IMG/VR virus record: IMGVR_UViG_3300045988_121717
Length of the DNA: 58,909 bases
Source of the DNA: a virus
Reading direction: 5' to 3' (one strand)
Made by a program: the position numbers and the translations under genes. A model generated the notes under the pieces. That model was not told the DNA's origin and did not search any database. It saw only the letters and a list, made by a program, of their open reading frames with translations. Below, one piece after another: positions 1 to 58,909 of the stretch. Every line of letters starts with the position of its first letter. Positions within the stretch are counted from its first letter, which is position 1.

Positions 1-50
1 CAAATATCGCAAAAAGCGCGAATTTTGTATCAGACTATCAGCATAGCATC
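1..50 (+). repeat. Terminal direct repeat, copy 1 (identical to 58860-58909)
   Basis: Exact 50-bp match, caaatatcgcaaaaagcgcgaattttgtatcagactatcagcatagcatc, at both window ends. Confidence 0.95.
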
Positions 51-841: not shown

Positions 842-1520
842 TCACGCCCTCTTGAGCTTTCCAATGCGCCGGTCGATCTCGCTCTGGCTGAGGACAGCGA
901 TGGGAACGGAACGGTCCTTGCGGGCAAGATGTACGGCAGTCATAATCTCGCCGTAGTCATGGGGCGTAATGCCGGATACGGACAGGAACTCGGTGCGCTT
1001 GCTCTCATCGGCAACCTTCAGCTCCTCCTGCAATGCCTGTTCGACGATGCGGCAGAGCTTGTTCACGGCGTACTCGTGGTCTTCGGCATCCCATTCGAGG
1101 AACTGCCGGTAGTTGGCGAGCGATTCGTTCAGGAGCCGGGTCAGCCGATCTTTGCCGAACTTGAACGTGGTGCGGCAGGTGGCAGCCATGACAAGCCATG
1201 CAATCTTGCCGCCTTGGTCGCGGGCCATACGGAGCTGTTCTTCCCTGCGGTTGCGGGGGGGCTTTCAGAACAGGCAGCCGGATATCGAGGTCGCACAGGC
1301 CGGTCAGGTCCTTCCGCATTGCATCGGTGGCAGCTTCCCTGCCGCCGTAACGGATGGCCGTGGCGTACTTGGCCTCGAACTCCTCCATCTCATTGCAAGC
1401 CTTCATCAGCCGGTTTGCTCCGATGCCTTCGTTCTGGTGCATGGCAGCCACAATGCACCAGCAGAACACCTGCATTGCGTAGTCGCGGGCATCAATGCGC
1501 TCCTGATTGAAGTTACTCAT
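842..1520 (-). pseudogene. Two-domain gene split by a frameshift at a G7 (coding-strand C7) tract
   Basis: ORFs 1005-1550 (start MSNFNQ at 1520 after AAGGAGGA) and 842-1228 are adjacent frames meeting at the homopolymer 1255-1261. Removing one base gives a continuous ~225-aa protein with two similar halves. Confidence 0.6.
1255..1261 (+). repeat. G7 homopolymer at the frameshift point
   Basis: ttgcGGGGGGGctttc read directly from the sequence. Confidence 0.9.
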
Positions 1521-1956
1521 CTTCGTCCTCCTTATAATCATCCGGGTCAATATCGAACTTCTTCAGCCGCTTGCCGATGAACTCATCCATGGAGTCGTAG
1601 TCGAACATGACATCGCTATCATCGTACAGCGACCAAACAATGTCATCCACAACGCTCGGAGTGAGCAGGTCTTCAGGGATGCAGAAAATCTCCTTCAGCC
1701 GGAACGGAACTTCCTGCTTGATGAATCCAAGCAGCGGATGTACGTTCTCATCATCAGAGTCTTTCGTTCGCGCATTCCAGAGCTTTGCAGCCTGACCCTG
1801 TGCAATGAGCTTCGTACTATGCCATTTTTTAACGAAAACTCGCCCGCTTCTGGCTCCACAGCCAGAGCAAACGACGCGGTAGCTGTTTTCGCCAGCGTTC
1901 TCGATGTGGGCGCTTTTTCCGCAGAACGGGCATGACTTCAATTCAAAATTTGCCAT
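1513..1956 (-). CDS. Lar-family (restriction alleviation)-like zinc-ribbon protein with an acidic C-terminal extension
   Basis: N-terminus CPFCG...VVCSGCGA...AAKLWNAR matches the Lar/zinc-ribbon pattern. The C-terminal ~70 aa are very D/E-rich. Start MANFELK follows GTGAGGAGC. Confidence 0.55.
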   Translation of the reverse strand: MANFELKSCPFCGKSAHIENAGENSYRVVCSGCGARSGRVFVKKWHSTKLIAQGQAAKLWNARTKDSDDENVHPLLGFIKQEVPFRLKEIFCIPEDLLTPSVVDDIVWSLYDDSDVMFDYDSMDEFIGKRLKKFDIDPDDYKEDEDE

Positions 1957-1964
1957 AGTGCTCC

Positions 1965-2495
1965 TCACTTTCTGTCAATCAAATTCATGCACAACTCCTT
2001 GTAAACGTCACGCTGCGCACACACCATAATGTACTCGTGGTCGTCGTGGCTGCTGGAAGCCCCCCCTACGGAGATGTCGGTCTTTTCGGCGGGTGCTTCG
2101 GGGACCGCAGGAACGGTCGTGGCTGCCCTCTCCTTTTCCTTTGCGGCAGCAAGGTAGGAATCGAGGCCAAGGCTGATGAGCATACCAGTTTCGATCTCGC
2201 TCATCTCGTTCTTTGTGAGCTTGCCAACGTAGTCGTTCATGCGGAGCTTGTCAACCGTGAAGACCTGCTCGCAGATTGCGGTGGAGGGCAGACGCGCGGT
2301 TTCGATGTGGATGTGCGTGGGAAGAGGCTTCTTCTCCTTCGTAGTCAGGTAGACGACCTCCAGAGTGCTGGAATACTTGTTGTTCTGGTCGTTGCTGACG
2401 ATGATGCCGGGGCGACCGCTGTGCTGCTCACTGCAAATCTCGCAGCCTTCAGGCAGGACATAGTAAATTTCTCCGCGATAAAACATACCATTCAT
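1965..2495 (-). CDS. PemK/MazF-family toxin-like protein with a ~60-aa C-terminal extension
   Basis: RGEIYYV...CSEQHSGRPGIIVSND...PTHIHI...ICEQVFTVDKLR...G matches the MazF/PemK fold pattern. RBS AAAGGAGAA. Confidence 0.7.
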   Translation of the reverse strand: MNGMFYRGEIYYVLPEGCEICSEQHSGRPGIIVSNDQNNKYSSTLEVVYLTTKEKKPLPTHIHIETARLPSTAICEQVFTVDKLRMNDYVGKLTKNEMSEIETGMLISLGLDSYLAAAKEKERAATTVPAVPEAPAEKTDISVGGASSSHDDHEYIMVCAQRDVYKELCMNLIDRK

Positions 2496-3896: not shown

Positions 3897-3940
3897 TGCA
3901 ATTCCCTCCTGTTTTTTACGGTGGTATGTTGTTTTCTGTA

Positions 3941-4010
3941 ATTATATTATCGCACAGGGGGCTTGCTTTTGTCAATCGAAAAATCTACGGTTTTACATAT
4001 TTTTTTACCA
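3941..4010 (-). promoter_or_regulatory. Early promoter module 1 (-35 TTGACA, TGC-GATAAT extended -10, upstream CGTAGATTTTTCG motif and A-tract)
   Basis: Minus strand reads aaaaaaatatgtaaaaccgtagatttttcgaTTGACAaaagcaagccccctgTGcGATAATat. It is one of four similar modules. Confidence 0.65.
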
Positions 4011-4062
4011 TTACAGTAAATACAGTCAACGTGTGAGACAATCGCACGATGACTGTATATCG

Positions 4063-10451: not shown

Positions 10452-10496
10452 ACTTTTTTTCCTCCAAAAATCTGTTGTTTGATAGATTGTAACTTT

Positions 10497-10568
10497 ATTC
10501 TAGCTGGAATTTTCCAATTTGTCAACCGATTTTTCCAGCTATGTTGAAAATTATCTGGAAAAATCCAG
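10497..10568 (-). promoter_or_regulatory. Repressor-controlled promoter (duplicate of the switch promoter) with CTGGA-N4-TCCAG operators
   Basis: Minus strand reads TTGACA(10520-10525)-aattggaaaattccagc-TAGAAT(10497-10502). Operators are at 10504-10517 (in the spacer) and 10555-10568, with a half-site at 10527-10539. Confidence 0.7.
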
Positions 10569-10569
10569 C

Positions 10570-11307
10570 TCACCGGGGAAGGCTCCGTGCATCAGCCGGG
10601 AAAACTTTGGCGACAAGCTCCTGCATCGCGCCGCAGCCACCGGCGATGTTCACGAGCTTCTTGTACTTCGAGATTTCTTCGAGGTACAGATCACAGGCGG
10701 TGCGGTTCAGGCGGTAGAAGGTCGTCTTCTTGTGCTGGGAGTTGAAGCCGCGCACGAGCTGGAAGTTCTTCCGGGTCTCGCTGTCGAGATACGGCATGAT
10801 GCGCTCATCAATGCGCCGCACAACCTTGAAGTTGCTGGTGCTGAACAGTTCGGCAATCTGCTTCGTGGTGATGCAGCCAGCAACAGGCTTGTCAACGCAC
10901 CTGTCATCCTCGACATCACGCAGAAGCGGCGCAGAGGGCGCAGGAGCGGACTTTGCGGGTTCGGGCTGGAGTTTCCTTGTCGGAGGCTCGGAGGCGCGTT
11001 CTGGGGCTTCTGCGGGCGGCTCAGGCGCACCATGCAGGAACATCATAACAGCCCAGCGGAAACCGGCGATGAATCCGCTCTCCTCATACTCCACAGCAAA
11101 ATCCATTGCCTTTTCGAGCAGGGCGTTCTGGACGGTGTTGCTGCTCCGGGTCTCGTTCTCGACGTAATAGGCGAAGACATCGTAGTCACGGACTGCGGCG
11201 GCGGTGTGCCGCTCCTTGCAGTTCGTGGAATCAACGTAGTCGCAGAACATCCTGCTGATGGCCTGATCGCTGTACACAGGCAGCGTCATAGGGTTCTGGT
11301 TGGTCAT
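10570..11307 (-). CDS. Rha-family-like phage regulatory protein (245 aa) with an unknown N-terminal domain
   Basis: The C-terminal half ITTKQIAELFSTSNFKVVRRIDERI... resembles the Rha/pRha regulatory domain. Ala/Pro-rich linker. RBS AAGGAGATG. Confidence 0.5.
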   Translation of the reverse strand: MTNQNPMTLPVYSDQAISRMFCDYVDSTNCKERHTAAAVRDYDVFAYYVENETRSSNTVQNALLEKAMDFAVEYEESGFIAGFRWAVMMFLHGAPEPPAEAPERASEPPTRKLQPEPAKSAPAPSAPLLRDVEDDRCVDKPVAGCITTKQIAELFSTSNFKVVRRIDERIMPYLDSETRKNFQLVRGFNSQHKKTTFYRLNRTACDLYLEEISKYKKLVNIAGGCGAMQELVAKVFPADARSLPR

Positions 11308-12308: not shown

Positions 12309-12429
12309 TTTTCGTACACCTCCTGCCTAGATGTTGAGCGGTCAAGCCGTTTTGGGCGGCCAGCGCGCTCTGTGCGGAATTTCCATGCAGTTACCTCCTC
12401 AGTGGATTTTTGGTGTTGTTTTGGTAACT

Positions 12430-12492
12430 TTATTATCGCACAAGTTCATTCGTTTGACAAGCGAAAATCTACGATTTGACGTATTTTTTTGC
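12430..12492 (-). promoter_or_regulatory. Early promoter module 3 (-35 TTGTCA, TGC-GATAAT -10, CGTAGATTTTCG motif, A-tract)
   Basis: Minus strand reads gcaaaaaaatacgtcaaatcgtagattttcgcTTGTCAaacgaatgaacttgTGcGATAATaaagttacc. Confidence 0.6.
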
Positions 12493-12531
12493 AAAAAGTG
12501 AGCGCATCTATCGGGCTGGATAGGTGCGCTC
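12492..12531 (-). terminator. Rho-independent terminator after gene 12539-12874
   Basis: 13-bp stem GAGCGCACCTATC/GATAGATGCGCTC with one mismatch, followed by ACTTTTTGC on the minus strand. Confidence 0.6.
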
Positions 12532-12538
12532 TGATCTC

Positions 12539-12874
12539 TTATTCGGGGGTCTTTTCGTCAGCGTCCTTCAGGTAGCAGTAGTCAACGACCCAGCCGTTCT
12601 TGTTGCCGAAGTCATTCATGTACCAATCGAGACGAACCATCTGGTCAGTGCCGTCCAAGCAGGAACCGAACAGGCTGGCAGAACAGCAGCTAGGCCGGAA
12701 TGCCTTGTTGTCGCTGCTGATCTCGTAGGTACGGCTGCGCTCAGGGTAGTGGCGGTTGGGCCAGTTGCTCTCCGAGAACACGATGAACGCGGTCATGGGG
12801 TCGCCAAGGTGCTCCTTGTTGTGCTCAACAAACAGATCCCGCAGTTCGGGATAGGTCATACGATTGCTTTTCAT
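12539..12874 (-). CDS. Hypothetical protein (111 aa)
   Basis: ORF track. RBS GGAGG 7 nt upstream. Confidence 0.6.
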   Translation of the reverse strand: MKSNRMTYPELRDLFVEHNKEHLGDPMTAFIVFSESNWPNRHYPERSRTYEISSDNKAFRPSCCSASLFGSCLDGTDQMVRLDWYMNDFGNKNGWVVDYCYLKDADEKTPE

Positions 12875-12987
12875 AGTGAAACCTCCATTGTGTCAATTTA
12901 CTTGCGGTTGGCTCCCGCGACCATTCCGGCGGCGTTGCCGGGATGGTTTCGGCTGTTGCCAGCAGCCATCGTCAGGCGGGTAATGGG

Positions 12988-13281
12988 TCAGACCAAGCAT
13001 TCAGTGCGGCTCTCAAGTTCTCTTGCCTGATCTTCAAATCCCCAGCGGTGGAACCAGTTGATGTACTCCTCATACATGGCCTTGAAGTACTTGTCGTCAA
13101 ACCACAGGCCTTCGGTGAAGCCATCAAGAAGGTCGCTGACGACCATGTTGGCGAACTCCATGTGACCAGCCATAATCTGCGCACGCAGGTAGGCGTTGAT
13201 GAGGTTGTTGATTTCCTTCCATTCGACGCTCTGGAAATCGTATTCGTTGCGGCGGGCGAGCAGTTCACGGTAAGTAGTCAT
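12988..13281 (-). CDS. Hypothetical protein (97 aa)
   Basis: ORF track 12988-13359. Start MTTYRELL follows ACGGAGGAAAACGCT. First gene after promoter module 4. Confidence 0.55.
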   Translation of the reverse strand: MTTYRELLARRNEYDFQSVEWKEINNLINAYLRAQIMAGHMEFANMVVSDLLDGFTEGLWFDDKYFKAMYEEYINWFHRWGFEDQARELESRTECLV

Positions 13282-13326
13282 AGCGTTTTCCTCCGTTTTC
13301 TTTCGTAGGTGTGTTGTTTTTGTACT

Positions 13327-13392
13327 TATATCTTCGCACAGGTGGCGGGCTTTTGTCAACCGAAAAATCTACGTTTTTACAGATTTTTTTGC
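13327..13392 (-). promoter_or_regulatory. Early promoter module 4 (-35 TTGACA, TGC-GAAGAT -10, CGTAGATTTTTCG motif, A-tract)
   Basis: Minus strand reads gcaaaaaaatctgtaaaaacgtagatttttcggTTGACAaaagcccgccacctgTGcGAAGATataag. It is divergent from the + strand promoter at 13401. Confidence 0.6.
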
Positions 13393-13400
13393 TAAATCTG

Positions 13401-13429
13401 TTGACCTCGTTACCTCCAGCGTTTATACT
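13401..13429 (+). promoter_or_regulatory. Sigma70-type promoter for the + strand island
   Basis: TTGACC (13401-13406), a 17-bp spacer, then TATACT (13424-13429), about 48 nt upstream of the HTH gene ATG. Confidence 0.6.
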
Positions 13430-13477
13430 GAAGGCAAACAAAGAGGCGGCAATGATGCTGCCGGAGAGGAGAATACT

Positions 13478-13687
13478 ATGACAACGGAGCAGCTTATCAA
13501 GGTGGCACTCAGCTATGCCGGCATGACGCAGGCGGAGCTGGCAGACAAGATCGGGATGAACAAGTCAAACTTCAACGCCCGCATGAAGCGCGAATCGTTC
13601 AGCCGGATAGAGATGGAGCAGATTGCCAAGGCATTGGGGATGGAGTTCGTCTACACGTTCAAGATGCCGGACGGCAAGACAATTTGA
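13478..13687 (+). CDS. XRE-family helix-turn-helix regulator (69 aa)
   Basis: LSYAGMTQAELADKIGMNKSNFNARMKR is a typical HTH_XRE pattern. RBS GGAGAGGAGAA. Confidence 0.75.
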   Translation: MTTEQLIKVALSYAGMTQAELADKIGMNKSNFNARMKRESFSRIEMEQIAKALGMEFVYTFKMPDGKTI

Positions 13688-14017
13688 CCCGATTGACCCA
13701 GTTCATTTGACCATATATAACTAATATACTTTTTCTCTTATTCTTTATGGTCACGGACGTTCCATTGGACTGTCCGCGTGACATTTGACCCTAAATGCGT
13801 GGAACTACGGATTTTTCCAACAGAAGTCCATGGAAAATGCAACATTTTCGTCGGGTCAAATTTCGGGTCAAAAAATGCGTCCGAATTTTGTCCGCGTGAC
13901 CGTCCCTGTGACCGTCCGCGTGACATTTGACCCAAAATCCTCGGAATTACAGATTTTTCGGCTGGTTCACTGCGTCCGCGTGACGTCACACGGACTGTCC
14001 AATGGACGCGGTTGACC
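13682..14017 (+). repeat. Repeat-dense non-coding spacer: TTTGACC(C) iterons, GTCCGCGTGAC repeats and palindromes, an AT-rich block
   Basis: TTGACC occurs about 8 times on both strands. GTCCGCGTGAC occurs 4 times, plus variants. A ~46-bp direct repeat lies at about 13771-13817 and 13912-13958. A near-palindrome GTCCGCGTGAC|GTCACACGGAC sits at 13975-13996. The AT-rich block spans 13713-13748. Confidence 0.85.
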
Positions 14018-14040
14018 AGCCGTTTTGAGCATCACAAAAT
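14012..14040 (+). promoter_or_regulatory. Putative promoter of the DUF262/DUF1524 gene
   Basis: TTGACC, a 17-bp spacer, then CAAAAT, ending 21 nt before the ATG. RBS GGAGGAAC. Confidence 0.45.
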
Positions 14041-14061
14041 CAAAACTGGAGGAACAAAATC

Positions 14062-15861
14062 ATGGGGCAAACCAATATCAGGTACACCGATGAGAGCATC
14101 AACACGGCGTTCAGTGCCTTCTACGTCATCCCGGAATACCAGCGCGAGTACGTCTGGGAGAAAACGCAGGTCAAGCAGCTTATGGAGGACCTGCTGGATG
14201 CCTACACAAGCGACAAGAACAAGGCGTACTTCCTTGGCACGATCGTAACGTGCAGTGCCAATGGCAATTTCGAGTTGGTGGATGGGCAGCAGCGGTTGAC
14301 CACGTTCTTTATCATCCTCTGTATCGTGAAGAAGCTGTACGCGGAGTACGGCATCCCGACAGCATCCATCGACCAGCTCATCTGCGGAACGAGCCTCAAT
14401 CAGTACGGCGTTCCTGTCACGCGGTATCGGCTGGAGCTTCAGCACCAGAACGTCACAAACTGCCTTGAACTGATTGCAAAGGGCGAGCCTCGACCGAGCG
14501 ATGTTTCAAAAACAGGAGGCCGCCTTTTCGATGCAGCGGAAGCCGTCGAGCAGTTCATGCGGGATAACTTCGCCGATATCACAGCTTTCGGTCCGTTCGC
14601 GGCATTTCTGCTGTACAAGTCCAGCTTCGTGCGTATCGACACGCAGAACGTGGTGGACGCGCTGAAAATGTTCGAGACCATCAACGAGCGCGGCAAGAAC
14701 CTCGACCCTATCGACCTGCTGAAGAATATGCTGTTCACAAACGTGCAGCCGAACCAGTTCGCCGCGCTGAACGCAGAATGGAAATCGGTCATCAACGAGC
14801 TGGAGAGGATTGATGAGAAGCCACTCCGCTTCCTGCGCTACTTCATCATGGCAAAGTACGACGTTTCAAAAGAGCCGAATGGTGTTCTGCGTGAAGACCG
14901 CATTTTCGCATGGCTCAAAGCAAACAAGAGCCAGTGTCCATACGCCTCCGCTCCGTTCAAATTTGTCCAAACAATGAAGGATTCTGCCACTTTCTATGCA
15001 AATTGCAAGAAGCCTGCAAATTCAGTCGGGGGGGGGGTACGAAGCCTAAAAAATATTCCCCTGCTGGCTGGCCTCTCCTACCGCCTGCATTTGATGCTTT
15101 TGCTGGCAGCCTCAAATATGGAGCCTGCCGTTCTTGACCGTTTCGAGGTGCTGGTGGAGTCCATCGTTTACTACACGGTCATCAACCATGTGACGACGAA
15201 CGACATCGAGCGCATTTTCGTCAAGTGGTGCGGTCAGGTCCGGGGTATCAAAACAGCCGATGAGCTGGACACGTTCATCAGCACCGCAGTCCTGCCGGAA
15301 GTCACGCGCTGGAAAACGGACAACGAGGCAAACTTCATGCGGCTCGGCCTGAACAGTATGCAGCAGTACAGAGTCAAGTTCATCATGGCAAAGCTCGCTG
15401 CCTATGTGAACGGTCTTCGCACAGGCAACGGCATGACCGATGAGCCGACCAGCGAGGAACTGTCTCGCCTCATTCCTTGGTCGTTCGAGATCGAGCACAT
15501 CATGCCGCAGACCTGTGCAGACAAGGCGCAGTACGGCGTAGATGAGGACGAGTTCTCCATCATCGTAAACCGACTTGGCAACCTCACGCTGCTGGAAAGC
15601 ACCATCAACCGCTCGATTCGCAATAGCACCTATCAGGACAAATGCGTGGATTACAGGCAGTCCACAGTGTACCTTACATCCTCCCTGCCGGAGCTGGTGG
15701 ACGTTGGCAAAAACAACGCCATCACGAAGGCAAACGAGAAGCTGAAGGCGTGGCCAGAATGGAACAAGACCTCCATCATGGAGCGTCAGGCCATGCTGTA
15801 CAAGCTGAGCGAGGAAATCTGGATGAGTGATGCCATCTGGAATCCGAAGAAATCTGCATAA
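14062..15861 (+). CDS. DUF262 (ParB/Srx-like NTPase) + DUF1524 (His-Me/HNH-like nuclease) protein, GmrSD-like type IV restriction/defence enzyme
   Basis: N-terminus YVIPEYQREYVWEK...LGTIV...LVDGQQRLTTFFI. C-terminus FEIEHIMPQ...LGNLTLLESTINRSIRN. 599 aa. Confidence 0.8.
   Translation: MGQTNIRYTDESINTAFSAFYVIPEYQREYVWEKTQVKQLMEDLLDAYTSDKNKAYFLGTIVTCSANGNFELVDGQQRLTTFFIILCIVKKLYAEYGIPTASIDQLICGTSLNQYGVPVTRYRLELQHQNVTNCLELIAKGEPRPSDVSKTGGRLFDAAEAVEQFMRDNFADITAFGPFAAFLLYKSSFVRIDTQNVVDALKMFETINERGKNLDPIDLLKNMLFTNVQPNQFAALNAEWKSVINELERIDEKPLRFLRYFIMAKYDVSKEPNGVLREDRIFAWLKANKSQCPYASAPFKFVQTMKDSATFYANCKKPANSVGGGVRSLKNIPLLAGLSYRLHLMLLLAASNMEPAVLDRFEVLVESIVYYTVINHVTTNDIERIFVKWCGQVRGIKTADELDTFISTAVLPEVTRWKTDNEANFMRLGLNSMQQYRVKFIMAKLAAYVNGLRTGNGMTDEPTSEELSRLIPWSFEIEHIMPQTCADKAQYGVDEDEFSIIVNRLGNLTLLESTINRSIRNSTYQDKCVDYRQSTVYLTSSLPELVDVGKNNAITKANEKLKAWPEWNKTSIMERQAMLYKLSEEIWMSDAIWNPKKSA
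15028..15037 (+). repeat. G10 homopolymer inside the DUF262/DUF1524 ORF (encodes GGG)
   Basis: cagtcGGGGGGGGGGtac read directly. The frame is currently open. Confidence 0.9.
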
Positions 15862-15863
15862 AC

Positions 15864-15908
15864 AAAAAAGACCCCCTCCGGCCATATAGGTCAGAGGGGG
15901 TCTTGCTA
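15864..15908. terminator. Bidirectional rho-independent terminator between convergent genes
   Basis: Stem AGACCCCCTC/GAGGGGGTCT, with an A-run on one side and a T-run on the other. It closes both the + island and the minus-strand late operon. Confidence 0.75.
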
Positions 15909-16009
15909 TACCATTATGCCGAGGGTGGCAAAATGGTCATCCATCGCGGTGGAGCCACCGGGATGGTCGATTTTGTTGAGGTCAACAAAATGGTGGCATC
16001 AACAAATCA

Positions 16010-16264
16010 TCAGAAGCCGTTCTGCTTCATGCGGTCGTAGGTCTTATCGGCCTCCATCGCCGCCTGAGTGAAGCTGTTGTTGTACCACCAGTTGATGAGG
16101 GCGGTGACAGTGGTGATGCCGGTGGTCACCAACTGTTCAACGGTGGAGCTCTCGATGGGCAGTGGGGACTTGCCGAATGCGCTGAGAATCTGGTTTGCCA
16201 GAGCCAGCAGCAGTGCGGCAGTGCGAGCGATGGTGGCGGCGGTAATCTTGTTGGTGTACTTCAT
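16010..16264 (-). CDS. Holin, SPP1-family-like (84 aa)
   Basis: Two hydrophobic segments and the motif WWYNNSFTQAAMEAD, typical of SPP1-type holins. Lies downstream of the endolysin gene, after the holin-like ORF. Confidence 0.65.
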   Translation of the reverse strand: MKYTNKITAATIARTAALLLALANQILSAFGKSPLPIESSTVEQLVTTGITTVTALINWWYNNSFTQAAMEADKTYDRMKQNGF

Positions 16265-16284
16265 GGTATTATTCCTTTCTCAAA

Positions 16285-16572
16285 TCAGTTGTCGTGAATA
16301 GGCAGGGCCTTGGCTCTGTTAAAAAGTTCCGTCCCGGTCCCATTTCCGCCTAAAGCGTGGTAGCTTCGGTAGAGGTATTCGAGGTTTTTCAGGCCAGCCA
16401 TGTCGATATACCCCTGCTGGATATAATGCTGGCAAGCCTGATAAATGCGGTCGTGCAGAATCGCCAGTACGCCGTTGAGTAGAGCTTTGTACTTGATGGC
16501 CACCGCGATGACAGCAGTACCGAGAAGCCCAAACGCCCACTCAGCCCAATACTGGATGATGAAATCCCACAT
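16285..16572 (-). CDS. Putative second holin or holin-like membrane protein (95 aa)
   Basis: N-terminal TM helix WAEWAFGLLGTAVIAVAI, between the endolysin and holin genes. The ATG at 16572 follows GAGGGGG. Confidence 0.5.
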   Translation of the reverse strand: MWDFIIQYWAEWAFGLLGTAVIAVAIKYKALLNGVLAILHDRIYQACQHYIQQGYIDMAGLKNLEYLYRSYHALGGNGTGTELFNRAKALPIHDN

Positions 16573-17593: not shown

Positions 17594-17963
17594 TGAGAAC
17601 CACCTCCACAAACTCCATAAAGGCACCTTCCAGTGCCTCGACGCGCTCAGACAGCGTAGGCTCATCATTGCGCTTGGCATCGTCGTCTTCGGCCTCCTGC
17701 TGGGTCTTGCCGCTGGCAATGTCCCACCAGTAATCGAACTTGGCAGTCACCTCATCGGCAGTCACTTCACCGCGATAGCGGTACTGCATCTCCTCGCAGG
17801 AGAACGCAGTGGACTCCTGCTCGACGGAGTTGCCGTCGTCATCGGTGACGGTGTTGGTCAGGGTGCATTCCTTGATGTCACGGCGCAGAATGATGTCCGT
17901 GCCAGTGCTGACAGGATGCACCTCAACAGCCAGAGGCTGCAACGAGTAGAATTCTTTGCTCAT
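17586..17963 (-). CDS. Hypothetical acidic protein (125 aa), in the XkdW-like position
   Basis: ORF track. RBS AAAGGAG. Overlaps the RT 3' end by 41 nt. Confidence 0.55.
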   Translation of the reverse strand: MSKEFYSLQPLAVEVHPVSTGTDIILRRDIKECTLTNTVTDDDGNSVEQESTAFSCEEMQYRYRGEVTADEVTAKFDYWWDIASGKTQQEAEDDDAKRNDEPTLSERVEALEGAFMEFVEVVLNG

Positions 17964-19164
17964 TTTTCACATACTCCTTTCGGCCATGTGTACTAACGCT
18001 CTGACGAGCGAGCTTCAATAACGGATAAAAGCGATATGCTACGGCGAACTTCACACTATCGGAGAACTTCACCCAGCCCTTGTAGGCCGTGATGCGGCAA
18101 GCTCTCCACCACGGCAGATAGCCGAGCCGCTTGATGTCATTCCATGCTCGCAGGACTTGCTTGCGGATGCGTAGGAAAATGCGGCCTCGGATGATGGTGT
18201 AGGTTCTGCGAATGACAAAACCCATCATGTCCACGCCTTCGGTGCGCCGGTGGCTGCCAGCGGCTCTCTCGCGGTGTACCTCTTTCTCCTTATCGAACGT
18301 GTCTGGCCGGTAAATCTGCCACGCAGGTTTGATATTGATGCCGAGGTGGTCCTTAGCCCACTTGGTCGATTTTCGTATGACCTTGACGAGCTGCGAATAG
18401 AATCCGAACAAAGAAAAATCGTCCGCATAGCAGACGACGGCTTTGACGTATGCGGTTCGCACTCCACGGCGGCATTGAGCAAGGCTCATTGCATACCGCA
18501 GAACATAGGACATGACGTAGTTGAACAGCCATGTGGAGAGGTAGCTGCCAATGCAGAGATGGTCGCCCGGATAGTTCTCCATCAACGCGCCGACAAACCA
18601 CAGCAGCGGCTTATTCTTACCGATGTCGCGGTTCAGCAGGGTCATGGAGCATTCGACAGTGACAGAGGGGTACGCCTTCTTGACATCGCCTTTCGCAACG
18701 GTGATTTTGCATTTCAGCTTGATGCGGAGAATGCGTTCGATTTTCCGTTTGCCGAGGACTTGGCCGCGTCCGGGGATACTGCCGTATTGAACCGGGAGCA
18801 GTTTGGCGCGGAACAGGGGCATCAACGCTTCAACAGCGATGTACTCCAAGACCTGCTGTTTCGGGCTTTCTTGGCAGATGTCACGGAGCTTCTGCGTAAG
18901 ACCGTCAACACGCTGGAAGCAGCGAATCGGCTTCAGGCCAAGGTTTCGCTCGTTGATGCAGGATGTGAGATAGTCGTTGTAGGCGGCGATGGCTGCGTTG
19001 GTTTTTGGCCGGTCATTGTGCTTGTCCAGCCGCTCAAAAGCAATCTCGCTTTTCTTTATCAGGCCAGTATGAACCAGTTCGCGCTGGAAGTCGTTCCGTT
19101 TCAACTTGCCCTTGAATGCTTTAACGGTAGCAGGAAGATTGAATGCTGCGGAGTCAATGTTCAC
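17923..19164 (-). CDS. Reverse transcriptase of a diversity-generating retroelement
   Basis: VVCYADDFSLFG (YxDD motif), SIPGRGQ, IGSYLSTWLFNYV (DGR-type motif 4-like). Lies immediately 3' of the template repeat. GTG start. Confidence 0.85.
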   Translation of the reverse strand: MNIDSAAFNLPATVKAFKGKLKRNDFQRELVHTGLIKKSEIAFERLDKHNDRPKTNAAIAAYNDYLTSCINERNLGLKPIRCFQRVDGLTQKLRDICQESPKQQVLEYIAVEALMPLFRAKLLPVQYGSIPGRGQVLGKRKIERILRIKLKCKITVAKGDVKKAYPSVTVECSMTLLNRDIGKNKPLLWFVGALMENYPGDHLCIGSYLSTWLFNYVMSYVLRYAMSLAQCRRGVRTAYVKAVVCYADDFSLFGFYSQLVKVIRKSTKWAKDHLGINIKPAWQIYRPDTFDKEKEVHRERAAGSHRRTEGVDMMGFVIRRTYTIIRGRIFLRIRKQVLRAWNDIKRLGYLPWWRACRITAYKGWVKFSDSVKFAVAYRFYPLLKLARQSVSTHGRKEYVKNEQRILLVAASGC

Positions 19165-19338: not shown

Positions 19339-19492
19339 CAGTTGCGCCAAGAGAGCCGTTCCAGTTCGCGTTCCCGACCGAATTGTTCGAGTTGCGGCAA
19401 GCCACACCGTCATTGCCACCGTCATTGAGGTTGCCGAAGCACCACCCAGCACGGAGACCAGAGGTGGACGGTTCGCAGTTGAAGCCGGCCTT
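19339..19492 (-). repeat. DGR template repeat (TR), non-coding
   Basis: 154 bp with 139/154 identity to 19598-19751. All 15 differences have T on the + strand (A on the minus strand) in this copy. Confidence 0.9.
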
Positions 19493-19583: not shown

Positions 19584-21284
19584 TTACCCGGCAATGTCAG
19601 GTGCGCCAAGAGAGCCGGACCAGTCCGCGTACCCGACCGAATTGTCCGAGTTGCGGCAAGCCACACCGTCACTGCCACCGCCAAGGAGGCCGCCGAAGCA
19701 CCACCCAGCACGGAGACCAGAGGGGGACGGTCCGCAGTAGAAGCCGGCCTTACAGCCGACTCCACTGCCGCTTGCCTGAACGCCAGTGGGCCACTCGATG
19801 TCTCCGCAGTCGGTATCCTCGATATACTGCCAGTGCCAAGAGGTCATAAGGTCTTTCGGCAGAGTCAGCGTCAGACCTTCCTGCTTGACATAATCCTCGG
19901 TGATGGCAGCGCCGCTGACCTTGCTCTGGTCCTTGCAGACGTAGCAGTCAAAGGTGAAGTCCTCATTGGCATCCTTGCCCCACTGCCACAGCTCATCGCT
20001 GATGATGAGGTAGGAGCCGTTCATAAACTCGACCTTCTGGAGCAGGCCGGGTTCCTTGCCGTTGGTGGCATTGTACTTGCTGCCGTCGGTACCAAGAACG
20101 TCGTCGTTCCAGCCGGAGAAGTACGGCATAGTGCTCAGGAGAGTCTGGTCTTTCACGGTATCAAACGTGTCGGTGACATTGACATACACGGCAGAATACT
20201 GGCTGTCAGCGATAGTCACAGGCTCAATGGCGGTAATGCGGACCTCGGTAGCAATATCGTGAACATCGGCCACGTTGCGGTCAGTAGAGCCATCGGTGTC
20301 AGTGCCGATAGACACCGCACTGCCAACGAACAGGTTCGCGGCCTGAGCTACGGTCAGAATGAACCGCTTAACGCCGGTCTCTGCAACGGCTGCCTTGTAC
20401 TGGTAGTTGTAGGAGGTGCAGCCCTCGATGGTGCCGGAGTTGCCCTTGCGAGCGTACTTCAGGCGCATCATGCGGTCGAGGAATTTCATCAAAGACCCAG
20501 AGCCGCCGGAATACTGAGTGCCGCGAGTGCGCCACAGGGTTACGCCGGAGGTATGACTGGTGTAGTTGATTGGTGCGAGGCCGGTGCCGCAGGTGGCCTT
20601 GCCGCCAACCTTGCCAGCGTAATACTTCGGGTGGGCGATATAGGCGTAGACATGGCCGGTGCGGTCCTTGCCCTCGCGCCACTGCTTGAAGCCGGTGGTC
20701 TGGTGGCACTTCATCTGGAGGTGCTGGTAGCCGTCAGCCCGCCATTCACGGACAAAGGTGTTCTTCTGCAACACCCAGCACAGGTGCTCGCCAGAGCGAA
20801 CATCGTCCAGATCGTCGATATGCTCGACGTAGAAGATTTCGTGGCTGCCGTCTTCCTTCTTCTCGGCAGCGACCTCAACGCACCAGAACTGGGGCAGGTG
20901 TGCGAAGTCGTCGCGGCCCGGAGTGGATGCGGTAGACGGAGTGCAGACGAGGCCAACGCTGTCATCGGTCAGCTCGCCGATAGCACTGGTGCTGGTGGCA
21001 TACAACGGAACGGTGCAGCCGTGAACGCGGTCATCGTCCAGCACGTTGCCAAACCAGCGTTCGAGCATCTGAACCTTGCTGTACTTGCTGGAATCGTACT
21101 GAGCCTTCCACCATTCGATGAACAGGCTGTCCACCTCATCCTTGGTGGTAGCCTGAGCGACGAGGTACTTATAGCACAGGTCAGCCGTGCCGGGGGTGGT
21201 ACAGCCGGCAGCGATAGCCCGCTGGATTTCGTTGGCGTGTTTCAGCGTGGTGTCGCGGGGGAAATTGATTACCTGATCTGCCAT
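19584..21284 (-). CDS. Tail fibre / receptor-binding protein, DGR target with a C-terminal variable (C-type-lectin-like) region
   Basis: 566 aa, located after the baseplate genes. The C-terminus GLRAGWCFGGLLGGGSDGVACRNSDNSVGYADWSG carries the VR. RBS AAGGAGGA. Confidence 0.8.
   Translation of the reverse strand: MADQVINFPRDTTLKHANEIQRAIAAGCTTPGTADLCYKYLVAQATTKDEVDSLFIEWWKAQYDSSKYSKVQMLERWFGNVLDDDRVHGCTVPLYATSTSAIGELTDDSVGLVCTPSTASTPGRDDFAHLPQFWCVEVAAEKKEDGSHEIFYVEHIDDLDDVRSGEHLCWVLQKNTFVREWRADGYQHLQMKCHQTTGFKQWREGKDRTGHVYAYIAHPKYYAGKVGGKATCGTGLAPINYTSHTSGVTLWRTRGTQYSGGSGSLMKFLDRMMRLKYARKGNSGTIEGCTSYNYQYKAAVAETGVKRFILTVAQAANLFVGSAVSIGTDTDGSTDRNVADVHDIATEVRITAIEPVTIADSQYSAVYVNVTDTFDTVKDQTLLSTMPYFSGWNDDVLGTDGSKYNATNGKEPGLLQKVEFMNGSYLIISDELWQWGKDANEDFTFDCYVCKDQSKVSGAAITEDYVKQEGLTLTLPKDLMTSWHWQYIEDTDCGDIEWPTGVQASGSGVGCKAGFYCGPSPSGLRAGWCFGGLLGGGSDGVACRNSDNSVGYADWSGSLGAPDIAG
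19598..19751 (-). repeat. DGR variable repeat (VR), within the last ~56 codons of the target gene
   Basis: Counterpart of the TR. It ends 11 nt before the stop codon. TR Asn (AAC) codons correspond to Tyr/Gly/Leu/Ser/Asp in the VR. Confidence 0.9.
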
Positions 21285-45403: not shown

Positions 45404-45468
45404 GAACAAAAACCTCCAATTTTTTTGTTTGTTTATAGTATAATTCTACCAAAGGAGGTCTGCGTCCG

Positions 45469-58859: not shown

Positions 58860-58909
58860 CAAATATCGCAAAAAGCGCGAATTTTGTATCAGACTATCAG
58901 CATAGCATC
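58860..58909 (+). repeat. Terminal direct repeat, copy 2 (identical to 1-50)
   Basis: Exact 50-bp identity with the window start. Confidence 0.95.

What the first reader, a model, noticed from the sequence alone, without database searches (positions are those of the whole stretch)
13401..15908. Opposite-strand island: XRE regulator, 374-bp repeat-dense spacer, GmrSD-like DUF262/DUF1524 nuclease
This is the only + strand block outside the lysogeny module. It has its own promoter (TTGACC-17-TATACT), is convergent with the late operon and ends at a bidirectional terminator. It therefore looks like a moron or defence cargo.

The HTH gene and the nuclease gene are separated by an unusually long, highly structured non-coding region. 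This suggests regulated expression (HTH-operator control) of a type IV-restriction-like enzyme. Such an enzyme would target modified DNA, which is notable in a phage that may itself modify a macromolecule (see the operon at 44684-49032).
Basis: partly seen in the sequence, partly recalled or inferred. Interest (0 to 1): 0.65.

Follow-up and report, generated by a model that had tools for sequence, protein, structure and literature searches.

The report
Phage-borne GmrSD nuclease with poly-G switch
A temperate Faecalibacterium phage carries an accessory defence-type DNA nuclease gene behind a small regulator gene and an unusually conserved, repeat-packed non-coding stretch, and a run of ten G's inside the nuclease gene changes length between related phages so that the gene is found switched on or off.

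Summary
A 69-aa XRE-type HTH gene (13478-13687) is followed by a 374-bp non-coding spacer (13688-14061) and a 599-aa DUF262/DUF1524 (GmrSD-family) gene (14062-15861) with intact DGQQR and EIEH...N motifs. All lie on the + strand and end at a strong hairpin.

The block is accessory cargo. It is absent from phage FP_Brigit and from 70 other loci with a related holin. It is present, always as HTH + spacer + nuclease, in every copy of one Brigit-like phage lineage.

- The nuclease ORF holds a G10 tract (15028-15037), the longest homopolymer in the genome. In 8 of 21 related contigs it is G8 or G9, which frameshifts the gene while everything downstream stays intact. The tree requires at least 8 independent changes. 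This looks like a phase-variation switch, but I could not check it at read level.
- The spacer evolves about 3-5 times more slowly than synonymous sites. It is built of 12-nt-periodic GAC-N-GTCC arrays, TTTGACCC boxes and a 24-mer that it shares with neighbouring promoters.

Control of the nuclease by the HTH is plausible but untested. The target (modified DNA or something else) is only a family-level inference.

The parts
13285..13400 (-). Minus-strand promoter module (context, backbone rather than cargo). It holds a -35 TTGACA (reverse complement at 13354-13359) and, directly upstream of it, the palindromic 24-mer AAAATCTACGTTTTTACAGATTTT (13364-13387). It is divergent from the HTH promoter.
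   Evidence: A module of about 100 nt is repeated at 3900-4040, 12384-12524 and 13284-13424, with 77% mean column identity. The 24-mer has 3 exact-pattern matches against 0.01 expected. It is absent from the syntenic 10 kb of FP_Brigit.
13401..13429 (+). Promoter-like site of the island: TTGACC-17-TATACT.
   Evidence: It matches 10 of 12 consensus positions and is the best site in the region. Both hexamers are conserved in all relatives, including the diverged L028 and L038. No transcript data were available.
13478..13687 (+). 69-aa XRE/Cro-CI-type helix-turn-helix protein gene.
   Evidence: Pfam hits HTH_24 (E 6e-7), HTH_26, Phage_CI_repr and HTH_3. PHROGs assigns it to transcriptional repressor families at E 2e-8. 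dN/dS is 0.14-0.19 against diverged alleles. The recognition-helix region MNKSNFNARMKR is identical in the 100%, 88% and 80% alleles.
13688..14061 (.). 374-bp constrained, repeat-dense spacer. It holds three modules, each a 12-nt-periodic GAC-N-GTCC-N4 array ending in GACATTTGACCC (arrays at about 13753-13791, 13886-13933 and 13970-14017). It also holds extra TTTGACC(C) boxes at 13683-13713 (three, direct) and 13853-13872 (two, inverted), and a palindrome TTTTTCCA-N11-TGGAAAA at 13812-13837.
   Evidence: Repeats. Nucleotide diversity is 0.061, against 0.177 at GmrSD third codon positions. It is 80% identical to L032, where dS is 1.0-1.3. Array copy number differs by whole 12-nt units between alleles. 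There is no Rfam match and no conserved ORF with a start codon.
13792..13815 (+). Copy of the 24-mer family (TAAATGCGTGGAACTACGGATTTT), directly after GACATTTGACCC.
   Evidence: The arms AAAAT(C/G)...ATTTT are kept in L028, L032 and L038.
13934..13957 (+). Copy of the 24-mer family (AAAATCCTCGGAATTACAGATTTT), directly after GACATTTGACCC.
   Evidence: In L032 this site reads AAAATCTACGATTTCGTTGATTTT, close to the promoter-module copy at 12464.
13960..14021 (+). Long hairpin-forming inverted repeat followed by UUUU, just upstream of the nuclease RBS. It may act as an attenuator or roadblock in a read-through transcript.
   Evidence: The 110-nt stretch 13955-14064 that contains it folds at -44.4 kcal/mol, z = -5.0. 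The inverted repeats are I2 and I7. Covariation is not convincing.
14062..15861 (+). 599-aa GmrSD-family (DUF262-linker-DUF1524) nuclease gene. Motifs: DGQQR at aa 74-78 (nt 14281-14295), EIEH at aa 476-479 (nt 15487-15498), RLGNLTLLE...N at aa 504-516.
   Evidence: Pfam. PADLOC Orf5 at E 1.7e-87 over 4-552 of 554 model positions, and HEC-06 at E 5e-68. The motif residues are invariant in 29 homologues. PDB by sequence: DndI 9jfl at E 2.6e-11, and SspE. Foldseek: DndI at E 6e-13 and TM 0.51, then SspE, then BrxU.
15028..15037 (+). G10 homopolymer inside the ORF (three GGG Gly codons plus the G of GTA; aa 323-326). It is a candidate slipped-strand on/off switch.
   Evidence: It is the longest homopolymer in the window; all others are 7 nt or shorter. 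Lengths of 8-12 are seen in relatives. 8 of 21 contigs are out of frame, with a stop at aa 326-329, and the downstream 274-275 codons stay open in the five out-of-frame contigs that reach the stop codon. The NJ tree requires at least 8 state changes. GGG is the rarest Gly codon, at 6.6%. The tract is absent from 55%-identical homologues. In the AF2 model it sits in a loop with pLDDT below 50.
15868..15904 (.). Terminator hairpin shared with the convergent lysis operon. It is canonical (with a U-tract) on the - strand and is a hairpin with a weak U-tract on the + strand.
   Evidence: -28.5 and -31.2 kcal/mol; z = -6.2 and -5.5.

Best explanation
The island is accessory ('moron') cargo of a temperate, Brigit-like Faecalibacterium phage.

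**Shown**
- It encodes a full-length GmrSD-family NTPase-nuclease (DUF262 + DUF1524) with all catalytic motifs. This family includes experimentally validated anti-phage nucleases.
- It sits in a cargo hotspot after the lysis genes, on the strand of the repressor and integrase genes.
- It is always linked to a 69-aa XRE-type HTH gene and to a 374-bp non-coding stretch under strong purifying selection.
- A G10 tract inside the ORF differs in length between otherwise near-identical phages. This puts the gene in or out of frame with no other damage.

**Inferred**
- The HTH gene, the spacer and the nuclease gene are one transcription unit driven from the promoter at 13401-13429 and expressed from the prophage.
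- The spacer is a protein-bound control region. Its 12-nt-periodic GAC-N-GTCC arrays, TTTGACCC boxes and two 24-mer palindromes (shared with the promoters of the neighbouring accessory genes) are bound cooperatively. The binder is most simply the adjacent HTH protein. Binding, possibly helped by the 13960-14021 hairpin, sets how much transcription reaches the nuclease gene.
- Slipped-strand mispairing at the G tract adds a heritable, reversible on/off switch. A lysogen population would then contain both defended cells and cells free of the nuclease's cost or self-conflict.
- When on, the enzyme cuts or nicks incoming foreign DNA that it tells apart from host DNA by a modification state. Which state is unknown.
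For: **Family.**. HEC-06 was validated as a defence, with DGQQR and EH mutants dead (bioRxiv 10.1101/2024.01.29.577857).

**Cargo.**
- The island is absent from FP_Brigit and from the 70 other holin-related loci, L067-L136.
- It is present and syntenic in about 35 contigs of one lineage.
- Extra genes are inserted at the same site in some siblings.
- Only 3 of 50,697 deposited phage records hold a full-length homologue.
- The 55%-identical homologues are stand-alone genes, without the HTH or the spacer motifs.

**Temperate phage.** It has a serine integrase and a CI-like repressor gene on the + strand. Brigit is a prophage (PMC5883640).

**Spacer constraint.** Nucleotide diversity is 0.061, against 0.177 and 0.110 at third codon positions of the nuclease and HTH genes. 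The spacer is 80% identical to L032, where dS exceeds 1. The conserved cores have variable 4-nt linkers, and arrays gain or lose whole 12-nt units, as expected of protein-binding sites. The motifs occur nowhere else in the genome.

**Shared 24-mer.**

**Single transcription unit.** The candidate internal promoter at 14012-14040 loses the key A of its -10 hexamer in several relatives, and its -35 hexamer varies.

**G tract.**
- Core evidence.
- Truncated products of 325-330 aa form a 78-member cluster and also occur inside the 599-aa cluster, many on contigs of 16-170 kb.
- An identical G9 allele is found in two samples.
- The L032-type allele is seen with both G9 and G12.
- dN/dS is 0.12 upstream and 0.15 downstream of the frameshift in the out-of-frame L032 allele.
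Against: - No transcript, binding or phenotype data could be obtained.
- Homopolymer length differences in metagenome assemblies can be sequencing or assembly errors, and several contigs have low coverage.
- Some loci from different collections may be the same underlying contig, so 8 of 21 is not a clean frequency.
- Both observed L032-type alleles (G9 and G12) are out of frame although both halves are under purifying selection. This fits a split or slippage-rescued gene as well as a reversible switch.
- The binder of the spacer motifs is unknown. A 52%-identical HTH homologue occurs without the nuclease or the motifs.
- The inverted repeats fold strongly as RNA on both strands (z = -5.8 and -4.3), so an RNA-level role is not excluded.
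- The C-terminal nuclease domain of the AF2 model has low confidence.
Confidence: 0.55

Rival explanations
1. The G-tract length differences are sequencing or assembly errors at a homopolymer. The gene is simply constitutive and in frame everywhere, and the tract is a chance feature.
For: - All evidence comes from metagenome assemblies, some at 1.5-8x coverage (contig names).
- A G10 or C10 run is expected about 0.2 times in 58.9 kb of this composition, so its mere presence is not rare.
- Errors and true slippage give the same scattered pattern on a tree.
Against: - No other indel occurs in 1.8 kb of the ORF in any contig.
- An identical G9 allele is seen in two separate samples.
- One truncated 326-aa product is recorded on 7 contigs, and a 78-member cluster of truncated products exists.
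- Lengths span 8 to 12, not just plus or minus 1.
- The tract is kept in three allele types with different flanks, and it uses the rarest Gly codon three times.
Confidence: 0.2
2. The spacer works mainly as RNA. It could be a long structured leader within an HTH-nuclease transcript, acting as an attenuator or as a processing or stability element, with the 13960-14021 hairpin plus UUUU as a leaky terminator. It could also template an antisense RNA starting near 13837 that covers the HTH gene.
For: - Strong folding on both strands: -126.8 kcal/mol (z = -5.8) and -130.8 kcal/mol (z = -4.3).
- The 110-nt stretch holding the 13960-14021 hairpin folds at -44.4 kcal/mol.
- There is no conserved internal promoter, so the spacer is probably transcribed.
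- A fully conserved minus-strand TTGACC-16-GAAAAT lies at 13871-13844, and a minus-strand terminator-like hairpin lies at 13463-13447.
Against: - There is no Rfam match.
- RNAalifold on 25 distinct sequences gives few two-sided changes and many one-sided breaks. For example, the A-to-C change in the 3' arm of the big hairpin is uncompensated in most relatives.
- A 12-nt periodicity with conserved cores and free 4-nt linkers, and gain or loss of whole units, is typical of protein-binding arrays rather than helices.
Confidence: 0.25
3. The HTH protein is not a dedicated regulator of the nuclease. It is a general regulator of the phage's accessory-arm promoters, or a small immunity or anti-superinfection repressor, and it merely sits next to the nuclease gene.
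For: - The 24-mer beside the -35 hexamer of three minus-strand promoter modules (3980, 12464, 13364) co-occurs with the HTH gene. It is absent from the syntenic region of FP_Brigit, which lacks the HTH gene.
- A 52%-identical homologue stands alone next to a serine recombinase at the end of another prophage.
Against: - HTH, spacer and nuclease are inherited together in all four diverged allele groups.
- Two 24-mer copies lie inside the spacer, so the same regulator would still touch the nuclease's upstream region.
- The two roles are not exclusive.
Confidence: 0.3
4. The frameshifted alleles are still expressed as full-length protein through transcriptional slippage or ribosomal frameshifting on the G run, or they work as a split two-protein enzyme. 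In that case tract length tunes the dose rather than switching the gene off.
For: - Both L032-type alleles seen (G9 and G12) are out of frame, yet both halves show dN/dS of 0.12-0.15.
- GmrSD was first described as separate GmrS and GmrD products, as recounted in bioRxiv 10.1101/2024.01.29.577857.
Against: - Slippage by RNA polymerase is best documented on A or T runs (my own knowledge, not tested here).
- There is no RBS or obvious start codon for the C-terminal half directly after the stop (sequence).
- The original two-gene report was later revised to a single protein.
Confidence: 0.1
5. The 202-bp segment between the 22-nt inverted repeats (13761-13782 and 13985-14006) is an invertible promoter (inverton). 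When flipped, it would point the conserved TTGACC-16-GAAAAT element at the nuclease gene.
For: - Inverted repeats, 91% complementary, flank a promoter-like element directly upstream of the regulated gene.
- The phage encodes a serine recombinase whose N-terminus matches DNA invertases.
Against: - All 25 distinct spacer sequences, plus L137 and L138, are collinear with the window. No inverted copy was seen.
- The inverted-repeat arms are simply copies of the array motif that recur elsewhere in the spacer.
Confidence: 0.04
6. The arrays are iterons of a replication origin or a centromere-like partition site, unrelated to nuclease expression.
For: - Tandem 12-bp units in clusters next to a small winged-HTH-like protein resemble iteron and centromere arrays, such as the 12-bp tubC repeats bound by TubR (my own knowledge).
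- The best Pfam hit of the HTH protein is a winged-helix family.
Against: - There is no partition NTPase or replication initiator next to it.
- The element occurs only together with the cargo genes, and it is missing from related phages that must also replicate.
- The phage integrates by a serine integrase.
Confidence: 0.04

Closest known systems
GmrSD-family stand-alone defence nucleases (Eco CT596 GmrSD; HEC-06 of Payne et al., bioRxiv 10.1101/2024.01.29.577857)
   Same: - Single polypeptide of about 600 aa, with an N-terminal DUF262 carrying DGQQR, a helical linker and a C-terminal DUF1524 with an (E/D)H..P...N His-Me motif.
- Full-length match to PADLOC HEC-06 models at E 5e-68.
- A single-gene effector without a partner methyltransferase.
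   Different: - It is carried by a temperate phage rather than embedded in a Hma, BREX or RM locus.
- It is preceded by an HTH gene and a 374-bp constrained repeat region.
- It contains an in-ORF G10 tract.
- The substrate is unknown.
- The best PADLOC model is 'Orf5' (E 1.7e-87), and I did not identify its parent system.
DndI and SspE (phosphorothioate-sensing DUF262/DUF1524 nickases; PDB 9jfl, 6jiv, 7drs)
   Same: - These are the closest solved structures, by sequence (9jfl at E 2.6e-11) and by fold (9jfl at E 6e-13 and TM 0.51; SspE at E 5e-11).
- Same domain order and motifs.
   Different: - Only 12-15% identity.
- DndI and SspE need dnd or ssp modification genes (PMC11662687). None is adjacent in the island, and the rest of the window and the host were not screened for them.
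- Y25 of DndI and other sensing residues were not compared.
BrxU with its regulator BrxR (GmrSD-family type IV enzyme inside a BREX locus)
   Same: - A GmrSD-family nuclease placed under a nearby DNA-binding regulator.
- BrxU is a fold match at E 1e-4.
   Different: - BrxR is a WYL-domain regulator of a whole defence island (my own knowledge); here the regulator is a 69-aa XRE-type protein.
- BrxU is a more distant relative than DndI or SspE.
- There is no BREX locus here.
Phase-variable restriction-modification genes (homopolymer or short-repeat tracts in type I, type III and type IIG genes; poly-G in Streptomyces pglX)
   Same: - An in-ORF homopolymer whose length sets the reading frame of a defence gene.
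- The gene is otherwise intact and under purifying selection.
- Slipped-strand mispairing in RM systems is well documented (PMC12707154).
   Different: - Here the tract is in a modification-independent, single-gene GmrSD-family nuclease carried by a prophage of a gut Firmicute.
- I found no report of a phase-variable GmrSD or type IV enzyme in the paper library.
- Switching within a clone is not shown.
C-protein (controller) regulation of restriction genes
   Same: A small XRE-type HTH gene lies immediately upstream of, and on the same strand as, a restriction-type nuclease gene. It gives a weak PADLOC hit to 'Control_protein' (E 0.0018).
   Different: - C genes usually abut or overlap the nuclease gene and act at a pair of C-boxes upstream of the C gene (my own knowledge).
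- Here a 374-bp array-rich region separates the two genes.
- There is no methyltransferase whose head start would need protecting.

Membership tests
GmrSD family (DUF262/DUF1524 nucleases) | N-terminal DUF262 (ParB-like NTPase) domain with the DGQQR motif | tested here: met
   PF03235 at E 1.4e-35 over aa 19-225. D74-G75-Q76-Q77-R78 are invariant in 29 homologues.
GmrSD family (DUF262/DUF1524 nucleases) | C-terminal DUF1524 domain with the His-Me finger motif ((D/E)H..P followed by conserved Asn residues) | tested here: met
   PF07510 at E 4e-21 over aa 422-581. E476-I-E-H479-I-M-P482 and N507...N516 are invariant and align to the same motif in DndI and another DUF262 structure. The AF2 confidence for this domain is low, with pLDDT 43-60.
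GmrSD family (DUF262/DUF1524 nucleases) | Both domains in one polypeptide of about 550-650 aa, joined by a helical linker; overall fold like solved members | tested here: met
   The protein is 599 aa. It matches PADLOC Orf5 from end to end, over 4-552 of 554 model positions. The top six Foldseek hits are DndI, SspE and BrxU, at E 6e-13 to 1e-4.
GmrSD family (DUF262/DUF1524 nucleases) | NTP-dependent cleavage or nicking of DNA that depends on its modification state; protection against phages | not testable with these tools
   This needs purified protein and plaque assays.
Phosphorothioate-sensing DndI/SspE subgroup | Genetic coupling to dndBCDE or sspABCD modification genes | tested here: inconclusive
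   No such gene lies in the island. The rest of the window was not systematically screened for dnd or ssp genes, and the host genome was not available for inspection.
Phase-variable (contingency) locus by slipped-strand mispairing | A simple-sequence tract within the ORF or promoter, long enough to slip | tested here: met
   G10 at 15028-15037 is the longest homopolymer in the window.
Phase-variable (contingency) locus by slipped-strand mispairing | Tract-length polymorphism among close relatives that alone switches the frame, in a gene otherwise intact and under selection | tested here: met
   Lengths are G8-G12. 8 of 21 contigs are out of frame, with no other indel or stop. At least 8 independent changes are required. 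dN/dS is 0.12-0.15. Caveat: these are assemblies only.
Phase-variable (contingency) locus by slipped-strand mispairing | High-frequency reversible switching within a clonal population, with a phenotype | not testable with these tools
Controller (C) protein-regulated restriction system | C gene adjacent to or overlapping the nuclease gene, C-box operators upstream of the C gene, and a partner methyltransferase | tested here: not met
   There is a 374-bp gap and no methyltransferase in the island. The inverted repeat at the HTH promoter (ACAGATTT-N7-AAATCTGT) is not conserved in relatives.
Invertible promoter (inverton) | Both orientations of the segment flanked by inverted repeats present in populations | tested here: not met
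   None of about 27 spacer copies is inverted. Power is limited because these are consensus assemblies.
Type III toxin-antitoxin (ToxIN-like) repeat-RNA locus | Tandem array of equal-length repeats, then a terminator, then a ToxN-type endoribonuclease gene | tested here: not met
   The repeats are not a regular tandem array, the downstream gene is a GmrSD-family DNA nuclease, and there is no Rfam hit.

The most novel reading that the evidence does not exclude
A temperate gut phage carries a GmrSD-family nuclease that is phase-variable through an in-ORF poly-G tract. It is also gated by a previously undescribed control region: 12-nt-periodic GAC-N-GTCC arrays, TTTGACCC boxes and 24-mer palindromes that a 69-aa HTH protein polymerises on. 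The on/off switching would resolve a conflict between defending the lysogen and sparing the phage's own DNA at induction, if that DNA is hypermodified. There are weak hints that it is: a TAGT-like glycosyltransferase, an ATP-grasp enzyme, a PLP-dependent decarboxylase and a ParB-like protein are encoded at 44684-49032. This would be the first phase-variable type IV-like defence and a new kind of defence-gene regulator.
Probability: 0.2. Interest if true: 0.7.

Novelty: new variant of a known kind. Interest (0 to 1): 0.5.

Why it matters
Faecalibacterium is one of the most abundant and health-associated gut bacteria. This phage lineage is common in human gut metagenomes: the nuclease cluster alone has more than 2,000 distinct member sequences.

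If the G tract is a real switch, prophage-borne defence in a major commensal is heterogeneous within a strain. That would change how phage resistance, prophage induction and phage-therapy outcomes should be modelled. It would also extend contingency-locus phase variation from RM methyltransferase systems of pathogens to a stand-alone GmrSD-type nuclease on a phage.

The spacer is a rare case of non-coding phage DNA evolving several times more slowly than synonymous sites, with a clear modular grammar but no known binder. It is a tractable entry point to how defence cargo is regulated inside prophages.

If neither feature holds up, what remains is an ordinary defence moron.

Tried and rejected
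- **Rfam.** Searching 13000-16300 at E <= 1 gave only a chance miRNA hit.
- **RNA covariation.** RNAalifold and pair counting on 25 distinct spacers, both strands, gave only two pairs with two-sided changes, both inside the array motifs, and many one-sided breaks. The result is not informative.
- **Coding potential of the spacer.** Several frames are open because the motifs lack stop codons. No frame has a conserved start or RBS, and the ATG at 13831 is ATA in many relatives.
- **Internal promoter TTGACC-17-CAAAAT (14012-14040).** I rejected it as a conserved promoter. A14036, at -10 position 2, is G in several relatives, and the -35 hexamer is TTGGCC or TTAACC in others.
- **Palindrome ACAGATTT-N7-AAATCTGT at the HTH promoter.** It is not conserved.
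- **Spacer with other cargo or in other replicons.**
  - The plasmid collection gave no hit.
  - Three DNA-pattern scans of viral contigs gave only this lineage, apart from 5 single-18-mer matches in other contigs that carry no motif arrays.
  - One scan of genome contigs gave a single contig of the same phage, labelled as a Prevotella MAG.
  - One scan of metagenome contigs also gave only this lineage.
- **Contexts of distant GmrSD homologues.** They are chromosomal after rpmE, or in a conjugative element after parB, and they have no HTH gene and no motifs.
- **Covariation between the HTH recognition helix and the variable 4-nt linkers.** The helix is identical in three allele groups, so this is uninformative.
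- **Inverton, iteron/partition and type III TA readings.** See the rivals and membership tests.
- **Extra cargo genes of sibling phages.** PADLOC and Pfam gave only an XRE-type HTH domain.

Full report
**What is there**

The + strand between 13401 and 15908 holds the following, in order.
- A promoter-like TTGACC-17-TATACT at 13401-13429, matching 10 of 12 consensus positions.
- A 69-aa ORF at 13478-13687 with a good RBS.
- 374 bp with no credible ORF (13688-14061).
- A 599-aa ORF at 14062-15861 with a GGAGG RBS.
- A strong hairpin at 15868-15904.

The small protein is an XRE/Cro-CI-type HTH (Pfam E 6e-7 to 6e-4; PHROGs repressor families at E 2e-8). Some database entries call it as 111 aa. That is an artefact of a 1-nt indel upstream that fuses a spurious frame.

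The large protein has GmrSD_N (E 1.4e-35) and GmrSD_C (E 4e-21). It matches PADLOC models Orf5 (E 1.7e-87) and HEC-06 (E 5e-68) from end to end. DGQQR (aa 74-78), EIEHIMP (aa 476-482) and the NxxGNLTLLE...N stretch are all invariant among 29 homologues.

The hairpin is followed by a U-tract only on the - strand. It is therefore first of all the terminator of the convergent lysis operon, and only a weak intrinsic terminator for the island.

**Genomic setting**

The window is a temperate phage related to Faecalibacterium phage FP_Brigit, with 70-83% nucleotide identity in patches. Brigit is a prophage with a large serine recombinase, RecT and a diversity-generating retroelement (PMC5883640).

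Here a serine integrase (57087-58808) and a CI-like gene (56203-56568) lie on the + strand. The lytic genes run on the - strand down to endolysin and holins at 17247-16010. The window ends repeat (3-26 = 58862-58885), as in a circular assembly.

The island lies between the last holin and the next - strand gene cluster, on the strand of the lysogeny genes. FP_Brigit has only a 428-bp gap at that place. None of 70 other viral contigs with a related holin (49-91% aa identity) has the HTH gene, the spacer or the nuclease gene.

About 35 contigs from IMG/VR, ENA, Logan and JGI carry the island, always in the same place and always as HTH + spacer + nuclease. This includes alleles diverged to 70% (HTH protein) and 78% (nuclease DNA) identity. 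Some siblings have further genes at the same junction:
- a 249-aa - strand gene in L006, L011, L047, L137 and L138;
- three + strand genes, one with an XRE-type HTH domain, in L032.

The nearest other nuclease homologues (about 55% identity) are stand-alone genes. One sits in a chromosome after rpmE and one in a conjugative element after parB. They have no HTH gene and none of the spacer motifs. Only 3 of 50,697 deposited phage genomes hold a full-length homologue.

**What kind of nuclease**

- By sequence, the closest solved structures are DndI (9jfl, E 2.6e-11) and SspE.
- An AlphaFold2 model has mean pLDDT 75. The N-terminal and middle domains are good and the C-terminal domain is poor.
- With that model, Foldseek's top six hits are DndI (E 6e-13, TM 0.51), SspE and BrxU.

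DndI and SspE sense phosphorothioate on self DNA and nick DNA that lacks it (PMC11662687). GmrSD and BrxU cut modified DNA. HEC-06 is a validated stand-alone defence whose DGQQR and EH motifs are essential (bioRxiv 10.1101/2024.01.29.577857).

Membership of the GmrSD family is therefore solid. 'Cuts modified DNA' is one of at least two possibilities within that family.

**The G tract (new)**

Inside the ORF, at 15028-15037, there is a run of ten G's: three GGG codons plus the first base of a Val codon (aa 323-326). It is the longest homopolymer in the 58.9-kb window, where all others are 7 nt or shorter.

Among 21 related contigs that cover it:
- 13 are in frame. These have G10, or G11 by a T>G substitution, or G10AG5 (+6 nt) in L006.
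- 8 are out of frame (six G9, two G8), with a stop at aa 326-329.
- In the five out-of-frame contigs that reach the stop codon, the 274-275 downstream codons contain no stop. No contig has any other indel in the ORF.

On a neighbour-joining tree of the surrounding sequence, the frame state needs at least 8 changes. Near-identical pairs such as L002 and L046 differ only at the tract.

Wider evidence points the same way.
- Truncated products of 325-330 aa form a 78-member cluster. They also occur within the 2,116-member 599-aa cluster, many on contigs of 16-170 kb.
- Two ENA samples carry a 100% identical 2.6-kb island with G9.
- The most diverged allele type is seen with both G9 (L032) and G12 (L139).
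- The tract is retained in three allele types whose flanks differ by compensating indels.
- It uses the rarest Gly codon of this phage three times in a row; GGG makes up 6.6% of Gly codons.
- It lies in a loop with pLDDT below 50 between two helices of the middle domain.
- It is absent from the 55%-identical homologues, which have one residue fewer there and no G run.
- Both halves of the out-of-frame L032 allele show dN/dS of 0.12 and 0.15 at dS above 1. The coding capacity is therefore maintained.

These are the expected marks of a slipped-strand contingency switch, as known for type I, type III and type IIG RM genes (PMC12707154). I found no report of one in a GmrSD or type IV enzyme.

There are three caveats.
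- All of this comes from assemblies, and homopolymer errors would scatter on a tree in the same way.
- Some loci may be duplicates across collections.
- The two L032-type alleles are both out of frame. That would also fit rescue by slippage during expression, or a split enzyme.

I could not look at reads.

**The spacer**

The spacer's nucleotide diversity among 26 sequences is 0.061. Third codon positions show 0.177 in the nuclease gene and 0.110 in the HTH gene. Against the most diverged allele the spacer is 80% identical, although synonymous sites are saturated at dS 1.0-1.3. It is therefore under strong purifying selection.

Its grammar is as follows.
- There are three modules. Each is a run of 12-nt units GAC-N-GTCC-NNNN ending in GACATTTGACCC.
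- The GAC-N-GTCC cores are kept while the 4-nt linkers differ freely between alleles (GCGT, ATCG, AACG, GTTG and others).
- Arrays differ by whole 12-nt units.
- Further TTTGACC(C) boxes stand at the 5' end (three, direct, overlapping the HTH stop codon) and in the middle (two, inverted, in a fully conserved block at 13836-13875).
- Both motifs are essentially confined to these 374 bp of the genome.
- Directly after the TTTGACCC of modules 1 and 2 comes a 24-mer with palindromic arms, AAAAT(C/G)-N12-(A/G/T)ATTTT (13792-13815 and 13934-13957).
- Stronger copies of the same 24-mer sit immediately upstream of the -35 hexamer in a roughly 100-nt - strand promoter module repeated at 3900-4040, 12384-12524 and 13284-13424. 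That module has TTGACA-18-GATAAT at the first copy.
- These modules are absent from the syntenic region of FP_Brigit, which also lacks the HTH gene.
- A second palindrome type, TTTTTCCA...TGGAAAA at 13812-13837, resembles one next to another - strand promoter at 10531-10564.

The spacer thus looks like a control region assembled from operator-type elements that the phage also uses at its accessory-gene promoters, plus arrays of its own.

**DNA-level or RNA-level action**

The inverted repeats make both strands fold far better than shuffles (z = -5.8 and -4.3). A long hairpin at 13960-14021 followed by UUUU sits just before the nuclease RBS.

Against an RNA role:
- covariation is weak, and several helices carry uncompensated changes in most relatives;
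- there is no Rfam match;
- conserved cores with free linkers at a fixed 12-nt period are what protein-binding arrays look like.

The candidate promoter just upstream of the nuclease (14012-14040) is not conserved. The nuclease gene is therefore probably read from the HTH promoter through the spacer. That leaves room for both a protein roadblock and an RNA attenuator.

I rank a protein-bound control region first and an RNA leader or antisense RNA second. An inverton is unlikely, since none of about 27 copies is inverted. An origin or partition site is also unlikely, since the element travels only with the cargo.

**Who binds**

The adjacent HTH protein is the simplest candidate, given its conserved linkage and the co-occurrence with the 24-mer. 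Nothing tests this directly.
- Its recognition helix is identical in three allele groups, so no co-variation with the sites can be read.
- A 52%-identical homologue stands alone at the end of another prophage, without the motifs.

**Context that may matter**

Upstream of the terminase gene, the genes at 44684-49032 encode:
- a PLP-dependent decarboxylase (E 2e-23);
- an ATP-grasp enzyme;
- a protein with a weak match to TET-associated or hmC glycosyltransferases (E 9e-5 and 2e-5, below Pfam's threshold);
- a ParB-like protein.

These are weak hints of DNA hypermodification. If the virion DNA is modified and the nuclease recognises that modification, an on/off switch and tight control would resolve a self-conflict at induction. 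This is speculation.

**Verdict**

HTH control and the substrate remain inferences.

The item is a new variant of a known kind: a GmrSD-family defence moron with a likely phase-variable poly-G tract and an unusually constrained, modular upstream region of unknown binder. Interest is moderate (0.5). It would be higher if switching and binding are demonstrated.

Noticed in passing
window 3-26 and 58862-58885: The two ends of the window carry the same sequence (AATATCGCAAAAAGCGCGAATTTT and its surroundings). This is expected of a circularly assembled or terminally redundant phage genome.
   Followed up: no
window 3900-4040, 12384-12524, 13284-13424: A minus-strand promoter module of about 100 nt is repeated three times in the accessory arm, with 77% mean column identity. 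It consists of a 24-mer palindrome, a -35 TTGACA, a -10 GATAAT-like hexamer and a conserved 5' UTR. It is absent from the syntenic part of FP_Brigit.
   Followed up: partly
window 10460-10570: Another minus-strand promoter (TTGACA-17-TAGAAT) is preceded by a palindrome TTTTTCCAG-N16-CTGGAAAAA. This resembles the TTTTTCCA-N11-TGGAAAA palindrome inside the spacer (13812-13837).
   Followed up: no
window 1513-1968 (-): A 151-aa ORF matches the Lar restriction-alleviation family (PF14354, E 9e-11). The phage would then carry an anti-restriction gene as well as a restriction-type nuclease.
   Followed up: no
window 44684-49032 (-): A gene cluster upstream of the terminase gene encodes a PLP-dependent decarboxylase (E 2e-23), an ATP-grasp enzyme (PylC-like), a ParB-like protein, and a protein with weak matches to TET-associated or hmC glycosyltransferases. 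It may be a DNA hypermodification pathway, but no hydroxymethylase or TET enzyme was identified.
   Followed up: partly
window 19339-19492 and 19598-19751; ORF 17923-19164 (-): Two 154-nt repeats, seen only as cross-matches at about 71-90% identity in related contigs (the window copies were not compared directly), lie next to a 413-aa ORF whose counterpart in sibling contigs carries a weak RVT_1 hit. Brigit encodes a reverse transcriptase at the syntenic position. They look like the template and variable repeats of a diversity-generating retroelement. Several related contigs end here.
   Followed up: no
L006 7865-8614 (-); also L011, L047, L137, L138: Some sibling phages carry an extra 249-aa gene, with no Pfam or PADLOC match, between the nuclease stop codon and the holin. 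Four of these five contigs have the nuclease out of frame. The numbers are too small to interpret.
   Followed up: partly
L032 2650-3967 (+): The most diverged sibling has three extra + strand genes after the nuclease gene (137 aa, 140 aa with an XRE-type HTH domain, 160 aa). This may be a toxin-antitoxin-like module. Only the HTH domain was recognised.
   Followed up: partly
L044 (CAKOVA010000109.1): The only hit in the species-representative genome collection is a 4-kb contig of this phage, binned into a MAG labelled Prevotella. This is probably a binning error, given the Faecalibacterium phage relatives.
   Followed up: no
window 13447-13463: A hairpin in the 5' UTR of the HTH gene has a different sequence, but still a hairpin-forming one, in most relatives (GGCAATGATGCTGCC versus GGCCATGCGGTCGCC). 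On the - strand it scores as a terminator-like site.
   Followed up: no
window 12560-13132: This 572-bp stretch, which includes the 111-aa ORF at 12539-12874, is replaced by an unrelated segment of about 404 bp in nearly all sibling contigs. It is another mosaic joint close to the island.
   Followed up: no
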